Part shown: in pieces, positions 9,554-54,782 of the stretch
Layout: the number at the start of each line of letters is the position of its first letter
Numbering within the stretch: the first letter of the stretch is position 1
Virus record (IMG/VR): IMGVR_UViG_3300044639_001144
DNA length: 64,000 nt
Source: a virus
Direction: 5' to 3' (one strand)
Position numbers and translations under genes: made by a program
Notes under the pieces: model-generated
Told to the model about the DNA's origin: nothing
What the model saw: the letters and a program-made list of their open reading frames with translations, nothing else
The model's database searches: none

Positions 9554-9561
9554 TATTTATA
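9554..9561 (-). promoter_or_regulatory. T4-type late promoter TATAAATA
   Basis: Exact T4 gp55-sigma consensus upstream of the ATG at 9536. Confidence 0.8.
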
Positions 9562-26081: not shown

Positions 26082-26082
26082 A

Positions 26083-26479: not shown

Positions 26480-27556
26480 TTATGCTGTGTAAACAGTATT
26501 AGCCGTAAATCCCAGCACAATAGCTGTGCCTGTGTTGGCGTATGTATAAGTTCCACTTACATTACCATTACCCGGATAATTAGCGATAGGAATAGATATA
26601 ACTACTACACCAGATCCGCCAGCACCGCCTGTGCCGTTGTTAGTTCCACCACCACCACCACCGGTGTTGACTGTGCCTGCTACTCCGGTATTTCCCCCGC
26701 CACCGTTACCGCCTGTGCTAGTTGTACTTGATCCAGCACCACCACCACCTGCTAACCAATAGTTGCCAGAAATTAATTGTCCCGCTGTTGAACCTGCTAT
26801 GCCATTAATTACACCAACTCCACCTGATGCTGTACTTGCTCCATTGGCACCTACACCCCCTGCCCCACCACCGCCGCAGAATACTGCACTGGAGTTTGAT
26901 CCACCATTAAAACCTTGGCCGGGAATTCCAGGACTTAATGCTCCAAACGAGGCATAGTTATTTTGACCACCTAACCCACCACCTGATCCTCCTACGTTTG
27001 CCCCTGGCCCAGCGCCGGATCCACCACCGCCTGATCCGCCAATTGCTGTGATTCGTGATAATGATCCTGATCCAAATGTACTATTTGATCCAGCTGTGCC
27101 AGCACCTGCTGATACACCACCTGCACCGCCTGCTCCTATGTTGGCAGTATAAGCAGTGCCTGGATTTAATGTGAATGCTGCAAAAGATACAACACCGCCT
27201 GCGCCACCACCACCACCTAAAAATGCCCCACCGCCACCGCCACCTGCTACTACAGCCACAGTTATATTATAAGCTACAGGACTACCTGCACTGGTATTGA
27301 CATTTGCCCAAGCTCCGTTGACATATACTTCCATTGCATTTGATGTGTTACTGTATCTGATCATGCCATTGGCGCCGGTCGGCCGCTGTGCTGTATTACC
27401 CACATTTACTGTGATTGCACCGGTACTGTTTGCTGTAATATTTTGACTGTTATTGATATGTAATGCTGCTAATCCATTGGTTTGAAATTGTAGATTACCA
27501 CTTGTATCTACTGTTTCAACTAACCCTGAACTGTTTGCGTTGATTATGACTGTCAT
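26480..27556 (-). CDS. Glycine-rich receptor-binding/adhesin protein
   Basis: N-terminal docking segment plus GNTAQRP module, then a VVAGGGGGG...GGSGVVVI glycine-rich domain. Confidence 0.8.
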   Translation of the reverse strand: MTVIINANSSGLVETVDTSGNLQFQTNGLAALHINNSQNITANSTGAITVNVGNTAQRPTGANGMIRYSNTSNAMEVYVNGAWANVNTSAGSPVAYNITVAVVAGGGGGGAFLGGGGGAGGVVSFAAFTLNPGTAYTANIGAGGAGGVSAGAGTAGSNSTFGSGSLSRITAIGGSGGGGSGAGPGANVGGSGGGLGGQNNYASFGALSPGIPGQGFNGGSNSSAVFCGGGGAGGVGANGASTASGGVGVINGIAGSTAGQLISGNYWLAGGGGAGSSTTSTGGNGGGGNTGVAGTVNTGGGGGGTNNGTGGAGGSGVVVISIPIANYPGNGNVSGTYTYANTGTAIVLGFTANTVYTA

Positions 27557-27831
27557 GCTATGTTAGCCCATGTTGAATTTATATATCCTTCAAGTCTAGC
27601 TGTAGTAGTATTGTATCTAATCATACCATTTGCTGCTGGACTAGGACGTTGTGCTGTATTACCAACTGGAACTGTAAATGCGCCAGTACCGTTGAATGTT
27701 ATGTTTTGACTGGTATTGATTGTTAATGCTGTGGTGCCATTTGTTTGAAGCGTGATATTACCAGTGGCATCTCCTGATTTGGTAAGAGTGCCTACTGTTG
27801 TGTCTGATTGTGCGTTTATACTTGATGCCAT
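27553..27831 (-). CDS. Minimal fibre adaptor (92 aa)
   Basis: Consists only of the two modules found at the N-terminus of 26480..27556. Confidence 0.75.
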   Translation of the reverse strand: MASSINAQSDTTVGTLTKSGDATGNITLQTNGTTALTINTSQNITFNGTGAFTVPVGNTAQRPSPAANGMIRYNTTTARLEGYINSTWANIA

Positions 27832-27847
27832 ATTTTATGATTCAGAA

Positions 27848-29722
27848 TTATAATATTACAGCAGTGATGACTTTTGTGCCGGTATCATTGTTAGTTTCAA
27901 GTGATTTGGCAAATACAGCCTGACCGTAACCGCAATCTCTACCAACACTGACAGCGTATCCTGCTACACTAGATGTTACTAAACTATCGCCTTTTTCAAC
28001 AGGACCAGTTACTTTTACCGGAACACGACCGCGTAAGGCTACCGGAAGCCCTGTCTGTCCAGTGTTCATTAGATAAGCTGGATTTGTAGATATTGCTCCT
28101 GCTACTCGCTCGTCAGCCATTTCTGTTGTGATTGTAATTTCGTTGTCGCCGCCAAATATAACAACAGTCCCAGGCGCATATTCATCATCAGCCAAGTAAT
28201 TTTCAGCCAAGTCAGCGTATTGTGCTGAAGTTGCTTTGGCAAATACTGTGTTGAAGTAAGTAGTGGCACTGCCAATATTACCTACACCGTTAGCGTTGGC
28301 ATTGACAATATTACCGCCAGTGATGTTACCAGTTGATACTGTTAAACTTGTGCCTGTTAGTGCGGCACCTGTAACAGCACCAGTTGCTGATATTAAACCA
28401 ACTGTGCGTAAGTTACCACCCTGTACGTTGCCAGTTGCAGTAAGTGATACAAATGTAGTACCTACAAATCCAGTACCAGCTGGTAAATATCCTGGGCTAC
28501 CAAAAAATTGTCGCCAAAATGACGTCGGGGATCCGCCATCAGATATAAGCATGATATTTTGTTGATACTGCAATGATATAGGACCATCTGTGCCCGATGA
28601 CCCAGTATATGAAAGATTAAGAGTACCATTCGCAAGATTTGATATTGATATTACTGTACCACTTGGAGCAGTCGTGGGTAGAGTAATTGTAATTCCCGCT
28701 ACAGTAACAAGTATATTTGTTCCATAATTGGAAGAAGTTAATGTGGTATTTGCCGCAATAACTTGTTGGCCCAGTGTTTTTAACGGTATACCAGTTAATA
28801 CTGAGCCATTGCCAATAAAGAAATTTCCTGTTACATTACCAGTAGCAGTTATTAGTCCAACTGTGCGTAAATTACCACCTTGTACGTTGCCAGTGGAACT
28901 TAACAAACCTCCGGTTAAAACATTACCAATTGTGGCGTTACCACTTACACCAAGACTGCCAGTTATGGAAGTAATGCCATCGGTAGTAATTTGTAAGCGA
29001 ACTGCAGCACCAGTTTCATCGGCAATAGTAAATGAACCATTGGGACTAAACTGATTTCCGTAATTGGATATTGACCAGTTTCTCACTGAGTTTACCAATG
29101 ATATTCTAGACATGACATTAGTGGATTGCGTTTGGCTTATATATCCACCAGATGTCGTTGTACCTCCGGTGGTTGTTGTACCTGTTACTGAGGTGCTTGA
29201 GCCTGTAATGACACCACCCACTACTGATGCTGCTGTGGTTGTACCTGTAACACTAGTTGAAGTACCTGTTATTACACCGCCTACTACTGACGCTGCTGTG
29301 GTAGTGCCAGTGACACTTGTTGAAGTACCAGTAATAACTCCACCCACAACCGACGCTGCTGTTACACGACCAGTAACACTTACGTTGGCACCTGTATTAA
29401 CATTACCTGTGCCATTTGGTGTCAAAACAATATTTCCGTTAGCAGCAGTAGTTTGTATGGTTAGTTCAGCAGTATCAGTGATTGCGCCTGACAATATCAA
29501 GTTACCACCGGTAATGTTACCAGTTGATACAGTTAAACTTGTACCTGTTAAGGCAGCACCTGTTACAGCACCTGTAGCACTTACAATACCAGAAACCAAT
29601 ACTCCTGTGCTGGTAACAGTGGCAATGGATACTGCATTACTTTGTAATACCAAATTACCAGTGAGATCACCAGTTTGGACTAAACTTGTTGTGGTCGAAG
29701 TTCCAGCTGATATATTACTCAT
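27848..29722 (-). CDS. Tail fibre with a C-terminal intramolecular chaperone/autocleavage domain
   Basis: GNxTGGN repeats; C-terminal SAQYADLAENY...GTVVIFGG..EIT...PVALRGRVPVKV. Confidence 0.8.
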   Translation of the reverse strand: MSNISAGTSTTTSLVQTGDLTGNLVLQSNAVSIATVTSTGVLVSGIVSATGAVTGAALTGTSLTVSTGNITGGNLILSGAITDTAELTIQTTAANGNIVLTPNGTGNVNTGANVSVTGRVTAASVVGGVITGTSTSVTGTTTAASVVGGVITGTSTSVTGTTTAASVVGGVITGSSTSVTGTTTTGGTTTSGGYISQTQSTNVMSRISLVNSVRNWSISNYGNQFSPNGSFTIADETGAAVRLQITTDGITSITGSLGVSGNATIGNVLTGGLLSSTGNVQGGNLRTVGLITATGNVTGNFFIGNGSVLTGIPLKTLGQQVIAANTTLTSSNYGTNILVTVAGITITLPTTAPSGTVISISNLANGTLNLSYTGSSGTDGPISLQYQQNIMLISDGGSPTSFWRQFFGSPGYLPAGTGFVGTTFVSLTATGNVQGGNLRTVGLISATGAVTGAALTGTSLTVSTGNITGGNIVNANANGVGNIGSATTYFNTVFAKATSAQYADLAENYLADDEYAPGTVVIFGGDNEITITTEMADERVAGAISTNPAYLMNTGQTGLPVALRGRVPVKVTGPVEKGDSLVTSSVAGYAVSVGRDCGYGQAVFAKSLETNNDTGTKVITAVIL

Positions 29723-29731
29723 ATGTTCTCT

Positions 29732-32700
29732 TTAAATAATTACCCAACGCTGCCCAGCGGTAACTGTGACAACTACACCACCGTTAGTAGTAATTGGACC
29801 CACACTAAATCCATTTGTATTCGCTGCTATAGTATAATTAGCTGTTACGTTGCTACTGTTAACTAAAATACCGTTTGTGGCTTCTACAACAGGAGCCTTT
29901 ACGCCGGATGATGTAAATGTTGCCACGTTGGCTGTGCCACCAACACCCACAGTTACATTACCACCACTTGCGGTAATGCTTACATTACTTGTACCATTGC
30001 TTATGTTTGAGCTACTGCCAGTACTAATTCCAGTCAGTTGACTGCCGTTACCCAGTATAAAGCTACCTGTAATATTACCAGTTGCTGATACAATACCAGC
30101 GGTCCGTAAGTTACCACCTTGAATATTTCCAGTAACACTTACGTTAGCGCCTGTGTTAACATTACCTGTGCCATTTGGTGTTAATACAATATTAGCATTA
30201 ACAGCAGTTGTTTGTAAGAGCAATTCGGTTGAATCAGTAATTGCTCCACTTAAAATTAAGTTACCGCCAGTAATATTACCAGTTGATACAGTTAAACTTG
30301 TTCCAGTTAATGCTGCGCCTGTTATAGCACCAGTGGCACTTATCAACCCTGCTGTTCTGACATTACCACCGGTTACGTTACCGCTAGCACTTACTAATCC
30401 TGCAGTATTTAAGTTAGCACCGGTGATGTTGCCAATTGCCGATGTTGCGCCAGCTGCTGTAACATTAAAAACCAGTGTGGTAGTATTGGATAGTGTATTG
30501 GCCCATTCGTATAGAGCTAATCCACCGGTACTGCCACCGTTTCTATTGACAATAATATCAAATTCGCCACCGCCGCCAGATCTATTCCATCCTAATAATG
30601 TTCTACCAGATGATGTAGTACCACCACCAATAGCAGCGGCTGAAATATCAGTTGATCCTAAATTCCAAGGCCCTACTATGAATCCGTTGATCCCTGTAAC
30701 AGTACCAGTGGCATACACCTGTCCGCTTGTTAGTAAGTTACCGCCAGTTACGTTAGCAGTAGCACTTACTAGTCCAACAGTTAAAATATTACCACCAGTT
30801 ATATTAGCTGCCGAAGTAATCGTTGAAGTTGCTGATACAATGCCAGCCGTTAGAATATTACCGCCAGTAACGTTTCCAGTTGCTGATACAATACCAGCTG
30901 TTCTGACATTACCACCTTGAATATTACCTGTAACACTTAAATTAGCACCTGTGTTAACATTACCTGTTCCATTTGGAGTTAATACAATATTAGAATTACC
31001 AGCACTAGTATTAATGTCTAACTGACCGGAATCAGTAATTGCACCACTTAGCAGCAAGTTGCCGCCGGTAATATTACCAGTTGATACTGTTAAACTTGTT
31101 CCAGTTAATGCTGCGCCGGTAATAGCACCAGTGGCACTGATTAATCCTGCTGTTAATATGTTGCCGCCAGTTACGTTTGCTGTTACTGAAACAACAGCAC
31201 CTAAATGACTTGATCCAGTAATAGTACCTGTTGAACTGATTAATCCAGCTGTTAATAAATTACCACCCGTTATATTGCCGGTTGCCGACACTAGGCCAGC
31301 AGTAGTAATATTTCCACCAGTTACGTTTGCAGTTACCGAAACAACAGCACCTAAATGACTTGAACCAGTAATAGTGCCTGTTGAACTAATTAACCCACCA
31401 GTTAATATGTTACCGCCAGTAATATTAGCAGCACTTGTAATAGTTGAAGTTGCTGAAATTAATCCAGCTGTTAAAATATTTCCATGTATCGCATTACCAG
31501 TACTGCTCATTAATCCAGCTGTTAACACGTTACCGCCGGTTACGTTACCAGTGGCGGTCACTAAACCAGCAGTTGTAATGTTGCCGCCAATTATGTTAGC
31601 TGCCGATGTAATTGTTGAAGTTGCTGAAATTAGTCCAGCTGTTAAGAGGTTGCCGCCAGTTACGTTACCTGTAGACGTTACAAGACCGGCAGTTGTAATA
31701 TTGCCACCAATTACGTTTGCTGCTGAAGTAATAGTACTTGTTGCTGAAATTAGGCCAGCAGTTAAAATATTGCCATGTATCGCATTACCAGTACTTGACA
31801 TAATACCAGCAGTTAGGATATTTCCGCCGGTTAAGTTTCCAGTTGCTGTTATTAACCCAGCGGTTACCACATTACCAGAAGTAACGTTACCTGTGACACT
31901 TAATCCTGAGGTATTACTCAGAGTCATGTAAGTATTTCCAGGTTGGAAGAATCTTAAATTAAGTAAATTATCAATTTCCCATGTTTGGTTTCCTGCCGAT
32001 TGGAATTGGATTCCGGCACCATCAGAGAGGCCATTGTTTAACACAATCCCCGATGTTGTAGTAATTGTTCCAGTTGCTGATATTAATCCGGCGGTTGATA
32101 TATTACCGCCGGCTAAGTTTCCAGTGGCAGTAATTCCAAGGCCCGCTGTTATATTACCAACTGAACTAATACCTAAACTTGATACCCAAACGTTTGATGC
32201 TGTGTTATATAATAATGTTGCGTATTCTGCGCCCGCAGGACCAACCCCAATACCGCCATTATTTGCTGCTGTTGCGTTAGCAGCATTGTTGGCCATATTA
32301 ATTTGTAAATCATTTGTGGTAATTGTATTAGAATTAATTGTGGTTGTTGTACCATTGACAGTTAAGTTACCTGTAATAACAACGTTACCATCAGTACCAC
32401 CCGATCCATTTGGATCAATAGTTAATGTTGGGCCAGCACCTACAATTAAGTTACCACTTAGTGTGATACCACCAACTGATATAGTTCCACTTGTTGTGAA
32501 ATTACCACCAGTCGTGTTGCCTGTTACGCTTAAACTTGTTAATGTACCTAAACTAGTGACATTTGGCTGTGCCGCTGTAGCAAGAGTACCTGTAATTAAT
32601 GTACCCGATAAATTACCGCCGGCAATATTACCAGTTGTACTGATTAATCCACTTGATGTTAAACTAGTTAATGTACCAACCGAAGTAATATTTGGTTGAG

Positions 32701-35590
32701 CATTTGTAGTAACAGTAGCAGCAGTTCCAACCGCCGATCCTGCTGATACAGCAAATGTTGCGTTTGCTACAGTACCAGTTACGTTACCACCGGTTAATGA
32801 TGTTAATGTAGAACCATTACCAATGTGATAGTTTGCTGTTATATTTCCAGTTGAACTAATCAATCCTGCTGTTAGAACATTACCGCCAGTTACATTAGCA
32901 GTAGCACTTACAATACCTGCTGTTAAAATATTACCATGTATTGCGTTGCCAGTACTTGACATAATACCGGCAGTTAAGATATTTCCGCCTGTTACGTTAC
33001 CTGTAGCAGTTACTAGACCAGCAGTTGTAATATTTCCACCAACAACGTTTGCTGCTGATGTAATTGTTGAAGTTGCTGAAATCAATCCAGCTGTTAATAA
33101 GTTACCGCCAGTTACGTTTGCAGTTACCGAAACTACAGCACCTAAATGACTTGATCCTGTGATAGTTCCTGTTGAACTAATCAATCCTGCTGTTAATAAA
33201 TTGCCGCCAGTAATATTACCATTTCCAGCTATAGTTCCAAGTACACTAACACCAGTTGGTGAAAATACAGCAACGTTACCGACTGTGCTAACTGATATAG
33301 TTACATTGGCGTTTGCCGCAGCAATGTTTAAATTACTTCCACCGTTTACAACGTTAGATACACTTGTAATAATACCAGTAAGTTGCGATCCATTACCCAG
33401 TATAAAGTTACCAGTAATATTTCCGGTTGCTGAAACTAAGCCGGCTGTTAAGATATTGCCGTGTATTGCATTGCCAGTACTTGACATTATACCGGCTGTT
33501 AGGATATTTCCACCAATAACATTACCTGCTGCGCTGAACAATGCGCTTGCTGCAAGAATAGCAGCGGTTACAGTTAATGTGCCGGCACCAGTCGTGCCAG
33601 TATTACCAGAAGCTTGTATACGAGCATCAAAATCAACATAATTAGCACTAGAATTAAAATCAATATAAGGAGTAGTAGCAGATGCGTTGTTAGCTTGAAA
33701 TCCTAATGTTAAAGATCCTCCTCCATCTGTACCTAATCCTACTCTACCAGTGGCAGTATTAGCAGTAACCGATGCTGCGACTGTAGCACCAGTAACTGAG
33801 GTACTTGAACCTGTAATAACACCGCCAACTACGCTAGCTGCGGTTACTATTCCAGCAGAACTAACTGCTCCTGCTGTTAGGATATTTCCGCCAGTTACGT
33901 TACCAGTAGCAGTTATTAATCCAGCTGTTAGGATATTTCCATGTATTGCGTTGCCAGTACTTGACATTAATCCAGCTGTTAATATGTTACCACCAGTAAT
34001 ATTTGCTGCTGATGTAATTGTGCTCGTAGCTGAAATTAGGCCAGCAGTTAAAATATTGCCATGTATTGCGTTACCAGTACTGCTCATAATACCGGCAGTT
34101 AATATATTACCACCAGTAATATTTGCTGCTGATGTAATTGTGCTAGTAGCTGAAATTAGGCCAGCAGTTAAAATATTGCCATGTATTGCGTTGCCAGTAC
34201 TTGACATAATACCGGCAGTTAAGATATTACCATGTATCGCATTACCAGTACTGCTCATAATACCGGGAGTTAGTATATTTCCAGTTGTTAAATTACCAAT
34301 TCCGCCAGTTATATTGCCAGTAGTTGAAAGTGTTGCCGCAGCCAACGTTATAGTAGTTACGTTTGACACAGTATTCATTTTTATACCATTAGTTCCGCCT
34401 GCCCATGGTATAATTGAAAATCCTACATTACCTATAGTAGGACCTGTAGTTAATATTGCTATGTCACCATTTGACTGTAAGCTGTTAAATGATCCAGCAG
34501 AAATATTGGGCAGTATAGAAATTGTATTTCCAGCATTAGTAACACTAAATGCCGCGCCAGTTCCTTGTGGCGCTGTGTCTGTGATAGATACTAATGTATT
34601 AACAGCAGCATTACCTGAAACAACTACTCTACTTGTTACAATGTTACCGCCGTTTATATTTCCAGTTGCTGAAATTAATCCAGCTGTTCTGACATTACCT
34701 GCTTGAACATTTCCTGTAACACTTAAATTAGCACCTGTGTTAACATTACCAGTTCCATTTGGAGTTAACACAATGTTAGCATTACCTGCACTAGTTTGAA
34801 TATCTAATTGACCGGAATCAGTAATTGCTCCACTCAATAGTAAGTTACCACCAGTAATATTGCCGGTTGATACAGTTAAACTTGTTCCAGTTAATGCTGC
34901 GCCTGTTATGGCGCCAGTTGAACTAATTAAACCTGCTGTTAGAAGATTGCCACCAGTAATGTTAGCGGCACTTGTGATAGTACTTGTTGCTGATATTAAT
35001 CCGGCAGTAAGTATGTTACCACCTAATATATTACCAGTAGCAGTTAATAATCCAGCAGATAAAATATTAGCGCCATTTATATTGCCAGTTGCCGTGAATG
35101 CTGATGCGCCTAATATTCCACTAATTGGAACAAAAGTTAAAAATGGTGAATTCCAAATTGTCTGAGCGTTAGCACCGTCATCTGCAACAAAATCAATGTA
35201 AAAAGTATTTGCCGAGCCGCTAAATGTTGTGTTTATAGTATTGGCAACAACGTTAGTTAGTAGGTTACCATTACCAAATAGGTAATTGCCAACAATGTTG
35301 CCCGTTGTACTGATTAAACCAGACGATGTTAAACTAGTTAATGTTCCTACTGATGTAATATTCGGTTGAGCATTGGTAGTAACTGTTTGAGCAGTAGTAA
35401 CTGTGCCGGAAATATTACCTACGATATAATTACCGTAGATATTTCCAGCAGCTGATATATTACCAGATGCACCAATATTAACAAATCCCGTCGCAGACCT
35501 AGTCCACGTGTTGTTAGCAGTGGAAAATACGTAAACAATATTGTTTACGGTTGCGGTTTGCCCATTTACGGGCGATACGGGAAATGCCAT
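29732..35590 (-). CDS. Giant repetitive tail fibre (1952 aa)
   Basis: N-terminal MAFPVSPVNGQ module, dozens of GN(I/V)TGGN(I/L)LTAGL(I/V)SAT repeats, C-terminal ...GPIT...VTVTAGQRWVII domain. Confidence 0.85.
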   Translation of the reverse strand: MAFPVSPVNGQTATVNNIVYVFSTANNTWTRSATGFVNIGASGNISAAGNIYGNYIVGNISGTVTTAQTVTTNAQPNITSVGTLTSLTSSGLISTTGNIVGNYLFGNGNLLTNVVANTINTTFSGSANTFYIDFVADDGANAQTIWNSPFLTFVPISGILGASAFTATGNINGANILSAGLLTATGNILGGNILTAGLISATSTITSAANITGGNLLTAGLISSTGAITGAALTGTSLTVSTGNITGGNLLLSGAITDSGQLDIQTSAGNANIVLTPNGTGNVNTGANLSVTGNVQAGNVRTAGLISATGNINGGNIVTSRVVVSGNAAVNTLVSITDTAPQGTGAAFSVTNAGNTISILPNISAGSFNSLQSNGDIAILTTGPTIGNVGFSIIPWAGGTNGIKMNTVSNVTTITLAAATLSTTGNITGGIGNLTTGNILTPGIMSSTGNAIHGNILTAGIMSSTGNAIHGNILTAGLISATSTITSAANITGGNILTAGIMSSTGNAIHGNILTAGLISATSTITSAANITGGNILTAGLMSSTGNAIHGNILTAGLITATGNVTGGNILTAGAVSSAGIVTAASVVGGVITGSSTSVTGATVAASVTANTATGRVGLGTDGGGSLTLGFQANNASATTPYIDFNSSANYVDFDARIQASGNTGTTGAGTLTVTAAILAASALFSAAGNVIGGNILTAGIMSSTGNAIHGNILTAGLVSATGNITGNFILGNGSQLTGIITSVSNVVNGGSNLNIAAANANVTISVSTVGNVAVFSPTGVSVLGTIAGNGNITGGNLLTAGLISSTGTITGSSHLGAVVSVTANVTGGNLLTAGLISATSTITSAANVVGGNITTAGLVTATGNVTGGNILTAGIMSSTGNAIHGNILTAGIVSATANVTGGNVLTAGLISSTGNITANYHIGNGSTLTSLTGGNVTGTVANATFAVSAGSAVGTAATVTTNAQPNITSVGTLTSLTSSGLISTTGNIAGGNLSGTLITGTLATAAQPNVTSLGTLTSLSVTGNTTGGNFTTSGTISVGGITLSGNLIVGAGPTLTIDPNGSGGTDGNVVITGNLTVNGTTTTINSNTITTNDLQINMANNAANATAANNGGIGVGPAGAEYATLLYNTASNVWVSSLGISSVGNITAGLGITATGNLAGGNISTAGLISATGTITTTSGIVLNNGLSDGAGIQFQSAGNQTWEIDNLLNLRFFQPGNTYMTLSNTSGLSVTGNVTSGNVVTAGLITATGNLTGGNILTAGIMSSTGNAIHGNILTAGLISATSTITSAANVIGGNITTAGLVTSTGNVTGGNLLTAGLISATSTITSAANIIGGNITTAGLVTATGNVTGGNVLTAGLMSSTGNAIHGNILTAGLISATSTITSAANITGGNILTGGLISSTGTITGSSHLGAVVSVTANVTGGNITTAGLVSATGNITGGNLLTAGLISSTGTITGSSHLGAVVSVTANVTGGNILTAGLISATGAITGAALTGTSLTVSTGNITGGNLLLSGAITDSGQLDINTSAGNSNIVLTPNGTGNVNTGANLSVTGNIQGGNVRTAGIVSATGNVTGGNILTAGIVSATSTITSAANITGGNILTVGLVSATANVTGGNLLTSGQVYATGTVTGINGFIVGPWNLGSTDISAAAIGGGTTSSGRTLLGWNRSGGGGEFDIIVNRNGGSTGGLALYEWANTLSNTTTLVFNVTAAGATSAIGNITGANLNTAGLVSASGNVTGGNVRTAGLISATGAITGAALTGTSLTVSTGNITGGNLILSGAITDSTELLLQTTAVNANIVLTPNGTGNVNTGANVSVTGNIQGGNLRTAGIVSATGNITGSFILGNGSQLTGISTGSSSNISNGTSNVSITASGGNVTVGVGGTANVATFTSSGVKAPVVEATNGILVNSSNVTANYTIAANTNGFSVGPITTNGGVVVTVTAGQRWVII

Positions 35591-38500
35591 TAATACCTTC
35601 CGACAGCTACTTCAATTACTCCTGTTGAATCTAAATCATAATTCTCTAGAGCTTTGCCAATGATACATCCTGGCAAGTATTTAGTGATATCTAAAGCAGT
35701 TGCTACACCTTTTATATCACTAGCAACTAATCTGTCTCCTTTTCTAATTGTTCCTACTACACTACATGGAACACGCCCAGTTAATGCTACTGGCAAACCA
35801 ACTGCACCTGAGTTCATTAAGTAAGCAGGAGCTGTTGAAATAATACCAGCTACTCTTGTATCATGTGATACAGTTGACGCAGTAATTTCATCAGCACCAC
35901 CAAATATAACTAGTGTTCCAGGAGCATATCCAGCATCAGCAATATAAGTTTCAGCTAAGTCGGCGTATTGTGCTGATGTTGATTTAGCAAATACTGTGTT
36001 AAAGTAGTTACTTGCCGAACCAATGTTACCTACCGCGTTAGCATTTGAATTAACAATATTTCCTACAGTAATTGTTCCAGTGCCGACTGATAAATTGCCA
36101 CCAATTACATTTCCTGTTATACTAACATTACTAGAAACTGTGACTATACCTGTGCCATTTGGAGTCAACGCAATATTTCCATTACTGCCCGTTATGATAG
36201 TTAATGCCCCAGTATCAACAATATTGCCTGTTACGTTTAAATTACCGCCTGATACATTACCTGTAGCACTAATTAATCCAGCAGTAGTAATATTACCACC
36301 AATTACGTTTCCAGTTGCGCTGACAATACCAGTTACATATTGTCCCGTAGTTGCCCAAACAACAACGTTTGGTGTTCCGGCTACGCCAACTGTAATGTTA
36401 GCACTAGCACTAGCAGTTACGTTACTTGTACCGTTTGTAATAGCATTAAATGTGCCATTCATTCCAGTTGATGCACCAAAATCATCAATCCAGTAGTAAC
36501 TTGTACCGTCAAATGTAAAGCGATACTGTACGTTTGTATCAGTGTTGTACCAGAAGTCACCCACGCTTGGGCTGCTTGGAGCAGTAGAGCTTGATGTTGA
36601 GCGTATACCACCACCAAATATGTTACCTGATGTGCTAATAATACCAGAAGAAACAATGTTTCCGCCAGTTATATTACCAGTTGAGCTAACGATACCTGCT
36701 GTTAGAATATTTCCACCAGTTATATTAGCTGCCGAAGTAATTGTACTTGTAGCTGAAATCAATCCAGCTGTTAATACATTACCACCAGTTACGTTACCAC
36801 TAACACTTAATAAACCAGTTACATATTCACCAGTTGGGGCAAACACAACTACGTTGCCAACACCACTTACTGATATGGTTACGTTAGCGGCAGCAGCGGA
36901 AATATTAACATTACTGTTGCCGTTTGTTACGTTTGATACTGATGTAATGATACCAGTTAATTGACTACCGTTACCAAGTATAAAGTTACCAGTTATGTTG
37001 CCAGTAGCACTAATAATACCAGCTGTTAGAATATTTCCACCAGCAACGTTTCCAGTAGCTGATACTAGTCCAGCTGTTCTGACATTACCTGCTTGGACAT
37101 TACCAGTAACACTTAAATTAGCTCCAGTATTAACATTACCTGTGCCGTTTGGAGTTAATACAATGTTAGCATTACCTGCACTAGTTTGAATATCTAATTG
37201 GCCAGAATCAGTAATTGCACCACTTAGCAGCAAGTTTCCGCCGGTAATATTGCCGGTTGATACTGTTAAACTTGTGCCAGTTAGTGCTGCACCTGTAATA
37301 GCACCAGTAGCTGAAATTAATCCTGCTGTTGTAATATTACCACCGATAATATTAGCAGCACTAGTAATTGTACTTGTTGCTGAAATTAATCCAGCTGTTA
37401 ATAAGTTACCGCCTATAATATTGGCAGCACTAGTAATTGTACTTGTTGCTGAAATTAATCCAGCTGTTAAGATATTACCATGTATGGCATTACCAGTACT
37501 TGACATAATACCAGCGGTCAATACATTACCGCCAGTTACGTTACCAGTAGCCGTTACTAAACCAGCGGTAGTAATATTACCACCAATTACGTTTGCTGCT
37601 GATGTAATTGTTCCTGTTGAACTAATCAATCCAGCTGTTAGTAAGTTAGCACCAACTACGTTACCGGTTACACTTAATACGTTACCTACTGTGTTAAAAG
37701 TTAATCCAGCTGTAGCAGCTAAATTGCCGCTATTATTAAATTGTACTTGTGTGTTTGCTCCTGCTGCCGTTACGTTACCACTAATACTACCCGCAAATGT
37801 TCCTACAAAGAAACCGGCTGTAGTAATATTACCTGTAGCACTTACTTGTCCAGCTGTTAAGATGTTGCCGTGTATAGCATTACCAGTACTTGACATAATG
37901 CCAGCTGTTAATACGTTGCCACCCGCTAAGTTTCCTGTAGCAGTAATACCAAGTCCAGCTGTTACATTACCGACTGAGCTAATACCTAAGCTAGATATCC
38001 AAACATTTGATGCTGTATTATACAACCATGTTGCATATTCTGCTCCTACTGGGCCAACACCAATACCGCCATTATTTGCCGCAGTAGAGTTAGCAGCATT
38101 ATTGGCCATGTTAATTTGTAAATCGTTTGTGGTAATTGTATTAGAATTAATTGTAGTCGTTGTACCATTAACGGTTAAGTTACCTGTAATGACCACGTTA
38201 CCATCTGTGCCACCTGATCCATTTGGATCAATAGTTAGTGTTGGACCTGCACCAACGATTGTGTTTCCACTAATTACAATTCCACCAACTGATAAAGTTC
38301 CACCTGTTGTGAAATTGCCACCTGTAGTATTACCAGTAATACTTAAACTTGTTAAAGTGCCAACTGAGGTAACATTTGGCTGTGCCGCTGTAGCTAATGT
38401 GCCAGTAACTAATGTGCCTGATAAATTACCACCTGTAATATTACCAGTGGCACTAATTAATCCAGCTGTTGTAACGTTGCCACCAATAACGTTTCCAGTG

Positions 38501-41500
38501 GCACTCGCTAATCCTGCTGTTAAAATATTGCCATGTATCGCATTACCTGTGCTTGACATGATGCCAGCTGTTAATACATTGCCACCAGTTACATTACCAG
38601 TAGCAGTTATTAGTCCGGCAGTTGAAATATTGCCACCAACAACGTTTGCTGCTGATGTAATTGTACTTGTTGCTGAAATCAATCCAGCTGTTAAAATATT
38701 ACCATGTATCGCATTACCAGTACTTGACATAATACCAGCAGTTAGTATATTGCCGCCTGTGATATTAGCAGCACTTGTGATAGTCGAAGTTGCTGAAATC
38801 AATCCAGCTGTTAATAAATTTCCGCCAGTTACATTACCACTTGCACTAATTGGTCCAGTAAAGTTTACGCCTGAGTCATAAAATACAGCAACTACGTTTG
38901 AACTTGCCCCAATACCAATACTTAAATTGCTACCACTAGTTGGAATATTAGCATAACTTCCGCCGTTGCTGATTTTGCTTGACGAAGCAGCTACGTTAAT
39001 ACCCGATAATAATGCGCCATTACCTAAGAAATAATTAGCTGTCGTAACGTTACCAGTAGCTGAAATTAATCCCACTGTAGTTACATTACCACCAATTACG
39101 TTGCCGGAAGCACTAACAACAGTACCTAATAAACTTGAACCGGTTACTGTGCCAGTAGCACTAACTAATCCGGCTGTTAATAAATTACCGCCTGTAATAT
39201 TTGCTGCTGAGGTAATTGTGCTTGTTGCGCTGATTAATCCTGCTGTTAAAACATTACCGCCAGTTACGTTACCAGATGCACTGACAACTCCCGTTACGTT
39301 AACGCCGGTCGCTGTGAATACTACAACATTACTTGTTCCGCTAATAGTAATATTAGCGTTACCGTTTAGTGCTGTGGTAATATTAGTATTACCGTTTGTT
39401 AATGCTGTTCCTGCCGTTGAGCTAATACCAGTTAGTTGACTACCGTTACCAATAAAGAAATTACCAGTTACATTACCAGTAGCAGTTATTAATCCAGCTG
39501 TTAAAATATTGCCATGTATCGCATTACCAGCACTACTCATAATACCAGCAGTTAATACATTTCCGCCGGTTACGTTACCGGTAGCAGTTACTAACCCAGC
39601 CGTTGTAATATTACCACCAACTACGTTTGCCGCTGATGTAATAGTACTCGTAGCACTAATTAATCCAGCTGTTAATAAGTTACCACCGACAATATTAGCA
39701 GCACTTGTAATAGTACTCGTAGCACTAATTAATCCAGCTGTTAGTAAATTGCCACCTGTAATATTTGCTGCACTTGTAATAGTACTTGTTGCTGAAATTA
39801 ATCCCGCTGTTAAAACATTACCACCAGTTACATTACCTGTAGCAGTTACCAAGCCAGCCGTAGTAATATTACCGCCAACAATATTGGCCGCTGATGTGAT
39901 AGTGCTTGTTGCTGATATTAACCCAGCAGTTAGTAAGTTACCGCCAGTAACATTTCCCGTAGCTGATACTAGTCCAGCTGTTCTGACATTACCCGCTTGA
40001 ACATTTCCTGTAACACTTACGTTAGCGCCTGTATTAACATTACCTGTTCCATTAGGAGTTAACACAATGTTAGCATTACCTGCACTAGTTTGAATATCTA
40101 ATTGACCTGAGTCAGTAATTGCTCCACTCAATAATAAGTTACCACCAGTAATATTACCGGTTGATACTGTTAAACTTGTTCCAGTTAATGCTGCGCCTGT
40201 TATGGCACCAGTTGAACTAATTAAACCTGCTGTTAGAAAATTACCACCGTAAACGTTGCCAGTTGCTGTTAATGTAGTTGATGCAATTACATTAGCGCCA
40301 GTGATGTTACCACTTGCGCCTGTTGTTGAAAAATTAGCACCAGTAATATTACCGCCAGCACTAATGTCAGTTATTGCGCCAATATTATTGCCATATACAT
40401 TACCAGACGCACTAACAACAGTACCCAATAAACTTGATCCTGTTACTGTGCCAGTAGCACTTACTAAACCAACAGTAGTAATATTACCACCAATTACGTT
40501 TGCGGCTGATGTAATTGTTCCTGTTGAACTAATCAATCCTGCTGTTAGTAAATTACCGCCGGCAATATTACCGGCTACAGTTAATACATTACCCACTGTG
40601 TTAAATGTCAATCCAGCAGTAGCAGCTAAGTTACCACTATTATTAAATTGTACCTGTGTATTGGCACCAGCAGCAGTTACGTTACCGCTAATACTACCCG
40701 CAAATGTACCAACGAAGAATCCAGCCGTTGTAATATTACCAGTTGCTGATACTATGCCAGCTGTTAAAATATTTCCATGTATGGCGTTACCTGTGCTGCT
40801 CATCACACCAGCAGTTAAAATATTACCGCCATATACGTTGCCGGTTGCAGTAACGCCAGCACCGGTTGTTAGGTTACCAACTGCACTAATACCTAAACTA
40901 GATACCCAGACATTTGAGGCTGTGTTGTACAATAATGTTGCATATTCAGCACCTAACGGACCTACTCCAATACCGCCATTGTTAGCCGCTGTTGCATTGG
41001 CCGCATTATTGGCCATGTTAATTTGTAAATCGTTTGTGGTAATTGTATTTGAGTTAATAGTAGTTGTTGTACCATTAACGGTCAAGTTACCTGTAATGAC
41101 CACGTTACCATCTGTGCCACCTGATCCATTTGGATCAATAGTTAGAGTTGGACCTGCTCCTACAATTGTATTGCCGCTTATTACAATACCACCAACTGAT
41201 AGTGTTCCGCTTGTAGTAAAGTTACCACCTGTAGTATTGCCAGTAACACTTAAACTTGTTAATGTACCTAAACTAGTAACGTTAGGTTGTGCGATAGTAG
41301 TTAATGTACCAGTAACCAATGTACCTGATAAATTACCACCAGTAATATTGCCCGATGCGCTAATAACACCTGTTACATATTCACCAGTCGGAGAAAATAC
41401 AGCAACATTGCCTACGCCACTTACTGAAACAGTTATGTTCGCAGCAGCAGCGGCAATATTAACATTACTATTGCCATTTGTTACGTTTGATACTGATGTA

Positions 41501-42246
41501 ATAACACCAGTTAATTGTGAACCATTGCCTAAAATATAGTTACCAGTTACGTTGCCAGTTGCTGAAACTAATCCGGCAGTTGTGATATTGCCACCAATTA
41601 CGTTACCGCTTGCTGATACAACAGTACCTAGTACACTTGATCCTGTAACAGTTCCTGTTGCTGAAACTAACCCAGCTGTTGTAATATTGCCACCAATTAA
41701 ATTGCCGGTAGCACTTACCGCACCACTTGAAAATACATTACCAAGTGAAATGTTACCATTAGCATTGGTGACTGGAATAGCATTTCCGGCATAAGTCAGT
41801 TGAGTAGCATTTCCAGTTAACTGAACTCCGCCGATATAAATTGATGTATTGCTTACATAAAGATGTTGCCAAGTATTTGTCGCATTACCTAATGAATATG
41901 TGTTAGCAGCAGATGGAATAATGTTGCCATTAAATCCTGTGCTTAAATAAGCTAAAACGTTGCTGTTGCTGTATGCACCAACAATACTATTAGCAGTAAT
42001 ACCTGTTAATTGACTACCATTACCAAAGTAATAGTTACCAGTAATATTTCCCAGTGCGCTAACAATGCCACTTGTAAGAATATTACCGCCTACGACATTT
42101 CCGCCTGCCGAAATATTAGCTGAAGCCGACAGATTTACGAATCCTGTGGCAGTTCTTGTCCATGCGTTAGACGCAGATGAGTAAACATATGTTATATTAT
42201 TAACTACTGCTGTCTGTCCGTCGGTTGGTGAGGTTGGAAATGCCAT
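35590..42246 (-). CDS. Giant repetitive tail fibre (2218 aa) with a C-terminal chaperone domain
   Basis: N-terminal MAFPTSPTDGQ, the same repeats, a PSVGDFWY module, SAQYADLAE C-terminal domain; 1-nt TAATG overlap with the next gene. Confidence 0.85.
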   Translation of the reverse strand: MAFPTSPTDGQTAVVNNITYVYSSASNAWTRTATGFVNLSASANISAGGNVVGGNILTSGIVSALGNITGNYYFGNGSQLTGITANSIVGAYSNSNVLAYLSTGFNGNIIPSAANTYSLGNATNTWQHLYVSNTSIYIGGVQLTGNATQLTYAGNAIPVTNANGNISLGNVFSSGAVSATGNLIGGNITTAGLVSATGTVTGSSVLGTVVSASGNVIGGNITTAGLVSATGNVTGNYILGNGSQLTGVITSVSNVTNGNSNVNIAAAAANITVSVSGVGNVAVFSPTGEYVTGVISASGNITGGNLSGTLVTGTLTTIAQPNVTSLGTLTSLSVTGNTTGGNFTTSGTLSVGGIVISGNTIVGAGPTLTIDPNGSGGTDGNVVITGNLTVNGTTTTINSNTITTNDLQINMANNAANATAANNGGIGVGPLGAEYATLLYNTASNVWVSSLGISAVGNLTTGAGVTATGNVYGGNILTAGVMSSTGNAIHGNILTAGIVSATGNITTAGFFVGTFAGSISGNVTAAGANTQVQFNNSGNLAATAGLTFNTVGNVLTVAGNIAGGNLLTAGLISSTGTITSAANVIGGNITTVGLVSATGTVTGSSLLGTVVSASGNVYGNNIGAITDISAGGNITGANFSTTGASGNITGANVIASTTLTATGNVYGGNFLTAGLISSTGAITGAALTGTSLTVSTGNITGGNLLLSGAITDSGQLDIQTSAGNANIVLTPNGTGNVNTGANVSVTGNVQAGNVRTAGLVSATGNVTGGNLLTAGLISATSTITSAANIVGGNITTAGLVTATGNVTGGNVLTAGLISATSTITSAANITGGNLLTAGLISATSTITSAANIVGGNLLTAGLISATSTITSAANVVGGNITTAGLVTATGNVTGGNVLTAGIMSSAGNAIHGNILTAGLITATGNVTGNFFIGNGSQLTGISSTAGTALTNGNTNITTALNGNANITISGTSNVVVFTATGVNVTGVVSASGNVTGGNVLTAGLISATSTITSAANITGGNLLTAGLVSATGTVTGSSLLGTVVSASGNVIGGNVTTVGLISATGNVTTANYFLGNGALLSGINVAASSSKISNGGSYANIPTSGSNLSIGIGASSNVVAVFYDSGVNFTGPISASGNVTGGNLLTAGLISATSTITSAANITGGNILTAGIMSSTGNAIHGNILTAGLISATSTITSAANVVGGNISTAGLITATGNVTGGNVLTAGIMSSTGNAIHGNILTAGLASATGNVIGGNVTTAGLISATGNITGGNLSGTLVTGTLATAAQPNVTSVGTLTSLSITGNTTGGNFTTGGTLSVGGIVISGNTIVGAGPTLTIDPNGSGGTDGNVVITGNLTVNGTTTTINSNTITTNDLQINMANNAANSTAANNGGIGVGPVGAEYATWLYNTASNVWISSLGISSVGNVTAGLGITATGNLAGGNVLTAGIMSSTGNAIHGNILTAGQVSATGNITTAGFFVGTFAGSISGNVTAAGANTQVQFNNSGNLAATAGLTFNTVGNVLSVTGNVVGANLLTAGLISSTGTITSAANVIGGNITTAGLVTATGNVTGGNVLTAGIMSSTGNAIHGNILTAGLISATSTITSAANIIGGNLLTAGLISATSTITSAANIIGGNITTAGLISATGAITGAALTGTSLTVSTGNITGGNLLLSGAITDSGQLDIQTSAGNANIVLTPNGTGNVNTGANLSVTGNVQAGNVRTAGLVSATGNVAGGNILTAGIISATGNITGNFILGNGSQLTGIITSVSNVTNGNSNVNISAAAANVTISVSGVGNVVVFAPTGEYVTGLLSVSGNVTGGNVLTAGLISATSTITSAANITGGNILTAGIVSSTGNITGGNIVSSGIISTSGNIFGGGIRSTSSSTAPSSPSVGDFWYNTDTNVQYRFTFDGTSYYWIDDFGASTGMNGTFNAITNGTSNVTASASANITVGVAGTPNVVVWATTGQYVTGIVSATGNVIGGNITTAGLISATGNVSGGNLNVTGNIVDTGALTIITGSNGNIALTPNGTGIVTVSSNVSITGNVIGGNLSVGTGTITVGNIVNSNANAVGNIGSASNYFNTVFAKSTSAQYADLAETYIADAGYAPGTLVIFGGADEITASTVSHDTRVAGIISTAPAYLMNSGAVGLPVALTGRVPCSVVGTIRKGDRLVASDIKGVATALDITKYLPGCIIGKALENYDLDSTGVIEVAVGRY

Positions 42247-42274
42247 TATGAATCCTTTGTTAAACTGCTATTCT

Positions 42275-42282
42275 TATTTATA
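42275..42282 (-). promoter_or_regulatory. T4-type late promoter TATAAATA
   Basis: Exact consensus followed by an AAGGA SD and the ATG at 42246. Confidence 0.75.
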
Positions 42283-42296
42283 GTATCGTACATACG

Positions 42297-43334
42297 TTAC
42301 CATGTGCCTATAGGAGATCGTTTCCATGTGTTTGTGGCTATACAAACGTATACATAGTTAGAATCCCATGCTATTTGCCCTGCTACTCCCGTGGCCGAAC
42401 TACTAGCCGGAGTGAAACTTGTTGTTACATTTAATGCTGATGTATAAAATCCTGTGTTGGCAAAAACTGCTACATTACTGGTACCATTAATGCTAACCGC
42501 AGCATTTGAATTAGTATTAGCAATGGTAATATTACTAGTTCCATTAGTAACTGCACTAAACGAACCGTTAATTCCTAAGGTTGAGCCATAATCATCTAAC
42601 CAAAAATAGTCTGTTCCATCAAAAGTATAGCGATATTGTGCGTTTGTACTAGTATCGTACCAAAAATCACCCACGCTAGGATTACTAGGAGGTGTTGGAC
42701 TAGAAGTTGATCGTATACCACCACCAAATATATTGCCAGCAGCACTGATAATATTAGTGGCAAAAACACTATTACCTGTTATATTTCCAGTAACACTTGG
42801 ATTGTTTGACAAACTAAATGTAATAATGTCAGCAGCAGCGTTGCCTGTAATTGAAATATTATTGCCGCTTCCAAAAGATACTGTGCTACTAACACCGTTG
42901 GCAACAACATTTCCGCTGCCAACTACATTAATAATACTAAATGAATTGCCTGTATTTTGTAGAAAAGTTAATCCTGTAATTCCTATTACAATAGGATCGT
43001 CAGTGACTAATTTCCAAGAAGTATCGCCCCATTCGGTACCTTCTGTGACCATTACAATCATACCAGCATTAATTTCACCGGTTTGATTGGCATCAGATGT
43101 TCTTACCCAAGTTCCATTGCTACCAGAACCAACTGTAGCAACATCATACAGTCCATTTTGACTGGTAGTAGTTTGTCCTGTAACTAGTATACGATCACCC
43201 GCGACGAGGCTTACACCATCAACTGTACTAGGAGCTCCGCCCCCAAGTGCTACATTTGTTGTTGTAAGAACTCTAACCGATTGTTTATAATCAATGTCTG
43301 ATATCTGTTCAGCACGGATTCGTGTTAAGCCCAT
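42297..43334 (-). CDS. Tail fibre connector/adaptor protein (345 aa)
   Basis: DYKQSVRVLTT..DGVSL..GDRILV..Q...QNGLY fibre domain, PSVGDFWY module, C-terminal GQIAWDSNYVYVC..TNTWKR. Confidence 0.8.
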   Translation of the reverse strand: MGLTRIRAEQISDIDYKQSVRVLTTTNVALGGGAPSTVDGVSLVAGDRILVTGQTTTSQNGLYDVATVGSGSNGTWVRTSDANQTGEINAGMIVMVTEGTEWGDTSWKLVTDDPIVIGITGLTFLQNTGNSFSIINVVGSGNVVANGVSSTVSFGSGNNISITGNAAADIITFSLSNNPSVTGNITGNSVFATNIISAAGNIFGGGIRSTSSPTPPSNPSVGDFWYDTSTNAQYRYTFDGTDYFWLDDYGSTLGINGSFSAVTNGTSNITIANTNSNAAVSINGTSNVAVFANTGFYTSALNVTTSFTPASSSATGVAGQIAWDSNYVYVCIATNTWKRSPIGTW

Positions 43335-54726: not shown

Positions 54727-54777
54727 TATTTATTGAAACATGAATTTTTTAAACAGCACACTAAATGACAGTAAATA
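54727..54777. promoter_or_regulatory. Divergent late promoters (ATAAATA minus 54727-54733; GTAAATA plus 54771-54777)
   Basis: The plus-strand box is 5 nt upstream of the ATG at 54783. Confidence 0.6.
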
Positions 54778-54782
54778 TCACC

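What the first reader, a model, noticed from the sequence alone, without database searches (positions are those of the whole stretch)
26480..43334. Gene order suggests a plug-and-socket, branched fibre network
Seen: 42297..43334 carries a module PSNPSVGDFWYDT..QYRYTFDGTDYFWLDD, and the next gene starts MAFPTSPTDGQ..NNITYVYSS..NAWTR. That gene carries the same module (PSSPSVGDFWYNT..QYRFTFDGTSYYWIDD), and the gene after it again starts MAFPVSPVNGQ..NNIVYVFST..NTWTR. The latter ends in a different domain (..GPIT..VTVTAGQRWVII). The three following genes share a different N-terminal motif, (G/V)D.(T/S)GN(L/I).(L/F)Q(T/S)N, after MSNISAG, MASSINAQ and MTVIINAN. Inference: cognate N-terminal plugs dock on sockets in the upstream product, chaining fibres of about 2000 aa into a hierarchical tree tipped by different adhesins.
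Basis: partly seen in the sequence, partly recalled or inferred. Interest (0 to 1): 0.78.

Follow-up and report, generated by a model that had tools for sequence, protein, structure and literature searches.

The report
Plug-and-socket joints linking phage fibres
In this large uncultured T4-like phage, and in many unrelated phage contigs, a fibre gene that carries a small internal "socket" module is usually followed by a fibre gene starting with a matching "plug" module, so gene order probably records how a branched, many-tipped fibre is assembled; binding itself has not been shown.

Summary
The window holds exactly two sockets, two plugs and three "type B" N-termini.

The plug (M-A-F-P-x-S-P-x-x-G-Q...Y-x-Y...W-x-R) is a widespread module: 1644 protein clusters, and it starts at residue 1 in all 150 best hits.

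In 156 IMG/VR loci the fibre genes read socket-only, then zero to seven plug+socket genes, then plug-only.
- Socket-only genes have a plug gene within three genes downstream only in 37 clusters and upstream only in 4.
- Plug+socket genes are followed by another plug gene in 20 of 24 clusters, plug-only genes in 5 of 52.
- The joint persists across 25 initiator N-terminal types and 42 terminator C-terminal types.
- Proteins of 69 aa (plug only) and about 110 aa (plug plus socket only) exist.

Docking is still inferred, because no multimer fold or binding test was possible.

Caveats:
- The socket is a subtype of a common fibre module that also occurs in loci without plugs.
- Plug and socket look distantly related to each other.
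- Unequal crossing-over between shaft repeats could produce much of the gene-order pattern.

This is a new variant of known branched-fibre systems. First-stage notes of this scan saw the same motif pair in other genomes.

The parts
42297..43334 (-). P0001, 345 aa. Chain initiator: N-terminal domain of a common tail-fibre type, then the socket, then a C-terminal GQIAWD..YVC..TWKR hairpin. It has no plug.
   Evidence: Translation. PHROG tail-fibre families match aa 8-167. Relatives in L001-L031.
42564..42713 (-). Socket 1 (P0001 aa 208-257).
   Evidence: E 1.7e-25 against profile A1.
42275..42282 (-). TATAAATA box, like a T4 late promoter, 29 nt upstream of the P0002 start.
   Evidence: It is one of only 3 copies in the window, where 10.5 are expected by chance.
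35590..42246 (-). P0002, 2218 aa. Extender: a plug at the N-terminus, a socket at about aa 1890, and a C-terminal chaperone-like domain.
42112..42246 (-). Plug 1 (P0002 aa 1-45).
   Evidence: (E 2.6e-26).
36454..36603 (-). Socket 2 (P0002 aa 1882-1931).
   Evidence: E 4.6e-25.
35593..36039 (-). C-terminal domain of about 148 aa in P0002, with copies in P0004 (27851-28291) and P0007 (43420-43881). It is probably an intramolecular chaperone of the Peptidase_G2 type.
   Evidence: Alignment A5. PF11962 matches 4 of 6 members, best E 2.3e-6, but the window copy scores below the cut-off.
29732..35590 (-). P0003, 1952 aa. Terminator of the plug/socket chain: it has a plug and no socket, and ends in a QRWVII-type C-terminus.
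35456..35590 (-). Plug 2 (P0003 aa 1-45). Its ATG overlaps the P0002 stop codon (TAATG).
   Evidence: (E 6e-25).
29735..29884 (-). QRWVII-type C-terminal element of P0003, the candidate second docking site.
27848..29722 (-). P0004, 624 aa, with a type-B N-terminus and a C-terminal chaperone-like domain.
27553..27831 (-). P0005, 92 aa. It consists only of the type-B N-terminus and a GNTAQRP..G.IRYN..W hairpin, and is a stand-alone paralogue of the first 86 aa of P0006 (56% identity).
26480..27556 (-). P0006, 358 aa, with a type-B N-terminus and a glycine-rich domain (Gly_rich_2).
43417..49863 (-). P0007, 2148 aa. Giant fibre just upstream of the finding. It shares shaft modules and the C-terminal domain with P0002, and has neither plug nor socket.

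Best explanation
The fibre block encodes a chain of trimeric fibres joined by a reusable two-part connector.

One part is a socket of about 45 aa, a small beta-meander with the pattern P-x-x-P-x-x-G-D-x-W-Y-x-T..Y-x-Y..D-G..W-x-D. It can sit anywhere along a fibre. The other part is a plug of about 35 aa, a beta-hairpin module with the pattern M-x-F-P-x-S-P-x-x-G-Q..Y-x-Y..W-x-R. It sits at the extreme N-terminus of the fibre encoded next.

P0001 (socket only) starts the chain. P0002 (plug and socket) attaches to it and offers a new socket about 330 aa before its own C-terminus, so P0003 (plug only) leaves it as a side branch and ends the chain. P0003 may in turn carry P0004 to P0006 through a second, weaker pair: a QRWVII-type C-terminus and a type-B N-terminus.

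Because plug and socket look like distant paralogues, and such modules often stand in tandem within one chain, the joint may copy that tandem packing with the two halves on different proteins.

Shown: the modules, their strict positions, and their directional co-occurrence in many unrelated contexts. Inferred: that they bind each other, the stoichiometry, and the branched geometry.
For: Position of the plug:
- It starts at residue 1 in all 150 best of 1644 protein clusters.
- 47 of those 150 also carry a socket in the same chain, 17 of the 30 that are at least 600 aa long.

Gene strings in 156 IMG/VR loci read S, PS (0-7 times), P. After dereplication:
- Socket-only genes have a plug gene within 3 genes downstream only in 37 clusters, upstream only in 4, both in 3, neither in 3.
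- Plug-only genes have a socket gene upstream only in 40 clusters and downstream only in 2.
- Plug+socket genes are followed by a plug gene in 20 of 24 clusters, plug-only genes in 5 of 52 (p 3.6e-10).

Sockets are not a general feature of these fibres. The nearest large plug-less gene upstream of the first plug gene has a socket in 28 of 48 cases, other large genes of the block in 11 of 88 (p 3e-8).

The strict socket subtype co-occurs with plugs (17, 3, 5 and 19 loci in the four cells; p 4.8e-5).

Three records that CheckV rates 100% complete hold equal numbers of plugs and strong sockets (1/1, 1/1, 3/3), all next to each other.

A gene with two sockets is followed by four plug genes, giving 4 sockets and 4 plugs in all (L152).

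The joint is kept across 25 initiator N-terminal types and 42 terminator C-terminal types, with the socket 2 to 1978 aa from the C-terminus.

Some proteins consist of little more than a plug (69 aa), or of a plug, a socket and a short tail (109-110 aa). Their size fits an adaptor rather than a fibre.

[quoted passage not shown] The abstracts listed describe the branched tailspike complex of CBA120 and a branching domain with a docking peptide in Klebsiella podophages.
Against: - No binding or multimer structure is available. Only monomer folds could be run, and the P0001 model failed (pLDDT 50).
- The socket belongs to a broad family of fibre modules that stand in tandem and occur in loci with no plug, so its basic role may be purely structural.
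- Its predicted fold weakly resembles collagen XV/XVIII trimerisation domains (Z 3.7).
- Plug and socket align to each other (hhalign probability 59%, P 9.5e-5), as expected if both are simply copies of one trimer module.
- Unequal crossing-over between shaft repeats lying between the plug and the socket would generate S, PS.., P strings without any selection.
- Sequence similarity between a socket and the next plug (Mantel r 0.59) is no stronger than between a plug and the socket in the same protein (r 0.52).
- Exceptions exist: some clusters have surplus sockets (L063, L072, L148), and 7 of 52 plug-only clusters have no socket in view.
- The loci are metagenomic fragments chosen by these same motifs.
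Confidence: 0.5

Rival explanations
1. Plug, socket, the C-terminal GQIAWD hairpin and the GNTAQRP hairpin are all copies of one small trimerisation or registration module, of the foldon or collagen-NC1 type. They nucleate folding of each fibre on its own. The gene-order pattern is a by-product of tight linkage and of unequal crossing-over between shaft repeats, not of docking.
For: - Profile-profile similarity of plug to socket (probability 59%, P 9.5e-5) and of plug to the C-terminal hairpin (44%, P 2.3e-4).
- The socket profile also hits plugs weakly.
- Generic copies stand in tandem in short fibres of records where no plug was found.
- The socket region resembles collagen XV/XVIII trimerisation domains at Z 3.3-3.7.
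- The C-terminal hairpin is followed by many different gene types.
- The giant fibres are recombining mosaics.
Against: - It does not explain why sockets concentrate in the gene just upstream of the first plug gene (28/48 against 11/88).
- It does not explain why the pair survives exchange of 25 N-terminal and 42 C-terminal contexts.
- It does not explain 69-aa plug-only or 110-aa plug+socket-only proteins, which have no shaft to trimerise.
- It does not explain the match of 4 sockets to 4 plugs after a two-socket gene.
Confidence: 0.22
2. The plug does attach each fibre to the product of the preceding gene, but at another site. That site could be a gp9/gp10-like domain, or the mature C-terminus left after the chaperone is cleaved off. 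The WW-like socket would then only be a linked marker.
For: - In plug+socket fibres of locus L043, the domain after the socket resembles CBA120 TSP4 residues 78-180, T4 gp9 and a Klebsiella phage baseplate protein at Z 4.9-6.7. According to the title and abstract of PMC8825819, the first 335 residues of TSP4 hold the tailspike-assembly domains.
- P0002 ends in a probable self-cleaving chaperone.
Against: - The 110-aa plug+socket proteins have no such extra domain, yet they are followed further downstream by more plug genes.
- P0001 and P0002 show no gp9/gp10-like match after the socket.
- The Z-scores are in the range the tool itself calls common.
Confidence: 0.15
3. All plug-bearing fibres attach independently to one common site on the baseplate or on an adaptor. 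The plug is a virion-attachment tag and the socket is unrelated to it.
For: The plug is strictly N-terminal and well conserved across very different fibres. N-terminal attachment to the baseplate is the usual rule for tail fibres (established knowledge).
Against: - One phage contig carries about eight plug genes (L043, L142 and L134 together), which would compete for a single site.
- This reading does not predict the directional linkage to sockets.
- It does not predict that the first fibre of each block has a different N-terminus.
Confidence: 0.08

Closest known systems
Neck fibre of Anabaena myophage A-1(L): gp82, about 14 gp81, gp80 (Yu et al. 2024, PMC10966104)
   Same: Three adjacent genes encode an initiator, a repeating middle unit and a terminator. 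[quoted passage not shown] The logic matches S, PS, P.
   Different: The A-1(L) N-termini do not carry the P-x-S-P-x-x-G-Q motif. There, one protein polymerises with itself into a linear bead chain on the neck. Here each link is a different, often giant, fibre, and the socket can be internal, which implies branches.
Branched receptor-binding complexes: CBA120 TSP1-4 with TSP4-N (PMC8825819), Klebsiella podophages KP32/K11/KP34 with a branching domain and a conserved docking peptide (PMC13352976), RaK2/phiK64-1 (PMC10253068), and phiKp24 (bioRxiv 10.1101/2022.03.15.484430)
   Same: A first protein offers a docking domain and the next proteins carry a short conserved N-terminal peptide. The genes are adjacent, and several different tips end up on one appendage (abstracts).
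   Different: In those systems the docking domain is described as like T4 gp10; one search counts the term gp10-like in these papers, and I did not read their full text. The socket here is a beta-meander of about 45 aa with no gp10 match. It is iterated up to about seven times in series, and plug and socket appear related to each other.
Phage T4 long tail fibre, gp34-gp35-gp36-gp37
   Same: Consecutive genes encode consecutive segments, and the N-terminus of each segment joins the end of the previous one (established knowledge). The window comes from a T4-like myovirus, shown by its gp15-type tail sheath stabiliser.
   Different: No Pfam or PHROG match to gp34-gp37 was listed for these proteins. 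T4 joints are end-to-end with a monomeric hinge. Here sockets lie 2 to 1978 aa from the C-terminus.
Branched lateral tail fibre of T5-like phage DT57C (LtfA carrying LtfB; PMC10713586)
   Same: A second fibre protein attaches to the virion only through the first fibre protein, and this widens host recognition.
   Different: It has only two proteins, its joint is not resolved structurally, and I found no shared motif.

Membership tests
Branching-domain / docking-peptide receptor-binding systems (CBA120 TSP4, KP32 type) | The primary protein carries a T4 gp10-like branching domain. | tested here: inconclusive
   No Pfam or PHROG gp10 match in P0001 or P0002. In an L043 relative, the socket region matches collagen XV/XVIII trimerisation domains at Z 3.7. 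The separate C-terminal domain matches TSP4 residues 78-180 at Z 5.9, rmsd 3.2 A over 95 residues.
Branching-domain / docking-peptide receptor-binding systems (CBA120 TSP4, KP32 type) | Secondary proteins start with a short conserved docking peptide. | tested here: met
   The plug starts at residue 1 in 150 of 150 best hits out of 1644 clusters. The two window plugs score E about 1e-25.
Branching-domain / docking-peptide receptor-binding systems (CBA120 TSP4, KP32 type) | Physical binding of the peptide to the branching domain. | not testable with these tools
   Only single-chain AlphaFold2 was available.
A-1(L)-type bead-chain fibre (initiator, extender, terminator) | Gene order runs from an initiator that only offers a docking site, through extenders with both parts, to a terminator with only the N-terminal part. 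| tested here: met
   In the window this is P0001, P0002, P0003. S, PS*, P strings recur in most of the 110 loci that hold a plug.
A-1(L)-type bead-chain fibre (initiator, extender, terminator) | Sequence relation to gp80, gp81 or gp82. | tested here: not met
   Translations of gp80-82 show no plug or socket motif by eye. No alignment or profile search against them was run. PDB profile searches with A1 and A2 listed no A-1(L) chain.
T4 long tail fibre gp34-37 | Homology to gp34, gp35, gp36 or gp37. | tested here: inconclusive
   No such family was listed by Pfam or PHROGs for P0001-P0008. These are profile searches only.
Foldon-type C-terminal trimerisation hairpin (T4 fibritin) | Detectable sequence or fold match to the foldon. 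| tested here: inconclusive
   The resemblance of P-x-x-P-x-D-G-Q..W to the foldon is recalled from memory. PDB profile searches listed no fibritin. The fold searches gave only collagen NC1-type trimerisation domains at Z 3.3-3.7.
Peptidase_G2 intramolecular chaperone (PF11962), for the C-terminal domains of P0002, P0004 and P0007 | Pfam match above the gathering score. | tested here: inconclusive
   4 of 6 aligned members match, best E 2.3e-6. The only window copy whose own score was shown, that of P0002, gives 14.4 bits against a cut-off of 25. No PDB sequence match.

The most novel reading that the evidence does not exclude
Plug and socket are two halves of an ancestral tandem beta-module that were split between consecutive proteins. 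Together they form a general connector that can be read from the sequence. A simple grammar (one initiator, any number of extenders, one terminator, sockets equal in number to plugs) would then let more than a thousand phage lineages build fibre trees of any branching depth. Each branch could carry its own adhesin, and tips could be swapped by recombination outside the joint.
Probability: 0.4. Interest if true: 0.75.

Novelty: new variant of a known kind. Interest (0 to 1): 0.62.

Why it matters
If the pairing is physical, the assembly order and branching of large multi-protein host-recognition appendages could be read directly from uncultured phage genomes. That would cover a module family of more than 1600 protein clusters that has no Pfam model, no solved structure and, as far as I found, no cultured phage carrying the canonical pair. 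It would also provide a compact natural connector (about 35 plus 45 residues) for studying how phages combine several adhesins. It would explain why these giant fibre genes recombine freely everywhere except across the joint.

Tried and rejected
- **Close DNA relatives among deposited phages:** none. The only hits were short, weak matches to cyanomyoviruses.
- **Whole genome:** not held.
- **PDB sequence searches** with P0001, P0004 and the socket, plug and C-terminal-domain profiles: nothing significant.
- **AlphaFold2 of P0001:** failed, mean pLDDT 50, so the initiator's N-terminal domain stays unassigned.
- **Model of the L043 protein with adjacent plug and socket:** confident over residues 1-80, but the tool returns no coordinates, so plug-socket contacts could not be read.
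- **Reading one chain through the P0001/P0002 or P0002/P0003 gene boundary:** not possible, because the genes are out of frame with each other.
- **Mantel tests** for specific co-variation of a socket with the next plug: r 0.59. This does not discriminate, because pairs within one protein gave r 0.52.
- **Canonical plug in cultured phages:** tblastn with the plug alone found nothing. With a 110-aa plug+socket protein it found only weak matches in Synechococcus phages. S-CAM4 has a generic socket-like module and variant M-A-I-x-F-P N-termini.
- **C-terminal GQIAWD hairpin as a third socket type:** rejected, because its downstream genes are too varied.

Full report
**Context.** The window comes from a T4-like myovirus. 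A gp15-type tail sheath stabiliser lies at 23603-25003 (PF16724, E 1.7e-27), with neighbouring virion proteins. DNA similarity to deposited phages is limited to short matches of about 70% identity to Prochlorococcus and Synechococcus myoviruses. Relatives in IMG/VR are fragments of 150-177 kb that CheckV rates about 45-51% complete, so the genome is probably a jumbo of about 350 kb. No whole genome is held.

The fibre block runs on the minus strand from about 53.6 kb to 26.5 kb:
- P0010, P0009, P0008
- P0007 (2148 aa)
- P0001 (345 aa)
- P0002 (2218 aa)
- P0003 (1952 aa)
- P0004, P0005, P0006

**Observation.** Every quoted string is present at the stated place. Profile scans of all six frames find exactly two sockets (P0001 aa 208-257, P0002 aa 1882-1931), two plugs (the first 45 aa of P0002 and P0003) and three type-B N-termini (P0004-6).

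Both plugs are real N-termini. P0002 has a Shine-Dalgarno box and a TATAAATA box upstream. P0003 starts within a TAATG overlap with the P0002 stop.

The giant proteins are mosaics of shaft modules that recur at about 85% identity. Internal duplication alone therefore says little.

**What the modules are.** Neither module has a Pfam model or a PDB sequence relative.

The plug profile finds 1644 clusters (at 50% identity) at E up to 1e-3, among 1.84 billion representatives. In all 150 best hits the match begins at residue 1, in proteins of 39 to 2541 aa. About a third of these also carry a socket in the same chain, and 17 of the 30 that are at least 600 aa long do.

The socket is a subtype of a much commoner fibre module, P-x-x-P-x-x-G-D-L-W-x-D..Y..G..W. 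That module stands in tandem copies in many fibres, including short fibres in records where no plug was found.

With larger profiles, plug and socket align in register over 34 columns (hhalign probability 59%, P 9.5e-5). The plug also aligns with the C-terminal GQIAWD..TWKR hairpin of P0001 and P0008 (44%, P 2.3e-4). All of these are probably diverged copies of one small beta module.

A confident AlphaFold2 model was obtained for a 241-aa relative in which plug and socket are adjacent (mean pLDDT 83, about 90 over residues 1-80). It gives three short strands for each module. The socket part weakly resembles collagen XV/XVIII trimerisation domains (Z 3.7). The C-terminal domain of that protein resembles CBA120 TSP4 residues 78-180, T4 gp9 and the phage Pa223 spike (Z 4.9-6.7). 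All of these Z-scores fall in the range the tool calls common. The P0001 model was unusable.

The C-terminal domain of about 148 aa shared by P0002, P0004 and P0007 gives sub-threshold matches to the Peptidase_G2 intramolecular chaperone.

**Comparative test of the pairing.** I fetched loci by P0001, by the socket profile and by the plug profile, and tagged their ORFs with profiles. The strings are strikingly regular: a socket-only gene (S), sometimes one or two unrelated genes, then zero to seven plug+socket genes (PS), then a plug-only gene (P). After that the block ends. Examples:
- S1779 P1477
- S840 -240 PS1889 PS1646 P313
- SS1311 P149 .. PS561 PS558 P284, with 4 sockets and 4 plugs
- The L043/L142/L134 contig, with about eight plug-bearing fibres

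After dereplication:
- 47 S-only clusters have a plug gene within three genes downstream only in 37 cases and upstream only in 4.
- 52 P-only clusters have a socket gene upstream only in 40 cases and downstream only in 2.
- PS genes are followed by a plug gene in 20 of 24 clusters, P-only genes in 5 of 52 (p 3.6e-10).
- The nearest large plug-less gene upstream of the first plug gene has a socket in 28 of 48 cases, against 11 of 88 for other large genes of the same blocks (p 3e-8). The socket is therefore not a general feature of these fibres.
- In loci ascertained by socket, the strict subtype co-occurs with plugs (p 4.8e-5).
- Three records rated 100% complete hold 1/1, 1/1 (plus one weak pair) and 3/3 plugs to strong sockets, always adjacent.
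- The pair is kept across 25 different initiator N-termini and 42 different terminator C-termini. The socket lies 2 to 1978 aa from the C-terminus.
- Proteins of 69 aa (plug only) and 109-110 aa (plug, socket and a short tail) exist. They are hard to explain except as caps or adaptors.

**The second pair.** QRWVII-type C-termini are directly followed by type-B N-termini in 7 of 21 dereplicated cases, against 10 of 306 other genes (p 2e-5). The enrichment is real but far from a rule.

**Limits.** Nothing here shows binding.
- The loci are fragments picked by the motifs themselves, and relatedness among them is only roughly removed.
- If a plug sits at the start and a socket further along, unequal crossing-over between the shaft repeats of two neighbouring fibre genes creates PS chimeras and keeps the S..P frame with no selection. 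This could explain much of the gene-order pattern. It explains less well the persistence of the pair through so many contexts, the mini-proteins, or the two-socket case.
- Co-variation does not discriminate.
- Some strings have surplus sockets (L063, L072, L148), and a few plugs have no visible socket, mostly where the upstream gene is cut off at the contig end.

**Comparison with known systems.** Four known systems are closest in logic:
- Branching-domain and docking-peptide systems: CBA120, KP32, RaK2 and phiKp24.
- The DT57C LtfA/LtfB branch.
- The T4 long tail fibre.

None of these shares the modules found here. I therefore rate this a new variant of a known kind.

First-stage notes of this scan recorded the same FPxSPxNGQ start and internal module in other genomes (e1-6018500, e1-5913481, e1-5704511, e1-5407782). 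Follow-up reports described other plug/socket pairs in other phages. The general idea therefore recurs within the scan.

Noticed in passing
L134, L148, L152, L173, L203 (for example L173:9001-9333): Many small plug or plug+socket proteins, and some long ones, end in a conserved hydrophobic tail such as ..GKAIAMSIVFGG, ..SPFLLMGA or ..PLDILMGI. This may be a third interaction tag. It is absent from the window proteins.
   Followed up: no
window 51550-51894 (P0009); L173, L152 and others: Small proteins of 109-122 aa like P0009 (phrog_1276) recur beside socket or plug+socket genes in many loci. They may be chaperones or adaptors.
   Followed up: no
window 25419-26231 (P0011; the likely true start is the internal MEARYRRDYPGEF): A conserved gene of about 220-260 aa with no family match closes the fibre block in many unrelated loci, just before the strand switch.
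   Followed up: partly
window 42275-42282, 9554-9561, 53079-53086: TATAAATA, the T4 late-promoter box, occurs only 3 times where 10.5 are expected by chance. Two copies lie 18-29 nt upstream of gene starts (P0002 and the gene at 8925-9536).
   Followed up: partly
window 54765-55934 and 55991-59599: A TPR protein with a weak glycosyltransferase-9 match, and a 1202-aa protein with a B_lectin match, lie beside fibres whose repeats are full of N-x-T/S sequons. Earlier notes of the scan raised fibre glycosylation as a possibility.
   Followed up: no
L043:9890-20114: In this unrelated phage each plug+socket fibre ends in a gp9/TSP4-like domain. Each is followed by a glycine-rich protein of about 330 aa that starts with a conserved M-P-(L/F)-(I/L)-S..G motif. 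This may be yet another docking pair.
   Followed up: partly
L285 (Synechococcus phage S-CAM4, NC_031900.1 163171-177350): This cultured cyanomyophage has a 1252-aa virion structural protein with a generic socket-like module at aa 1116-1158. Nearby genes start M-A-I-x-F-P..W-x-G..W, a variant of the plug.
   Followed up: partly
window 27553-27831 and 26480-27556: P0005 (92 aa) is a free-standing copy of the first 86 aa of P0006 (56% identity), and the two genes overlap by 4 bases.
   Followed up: no
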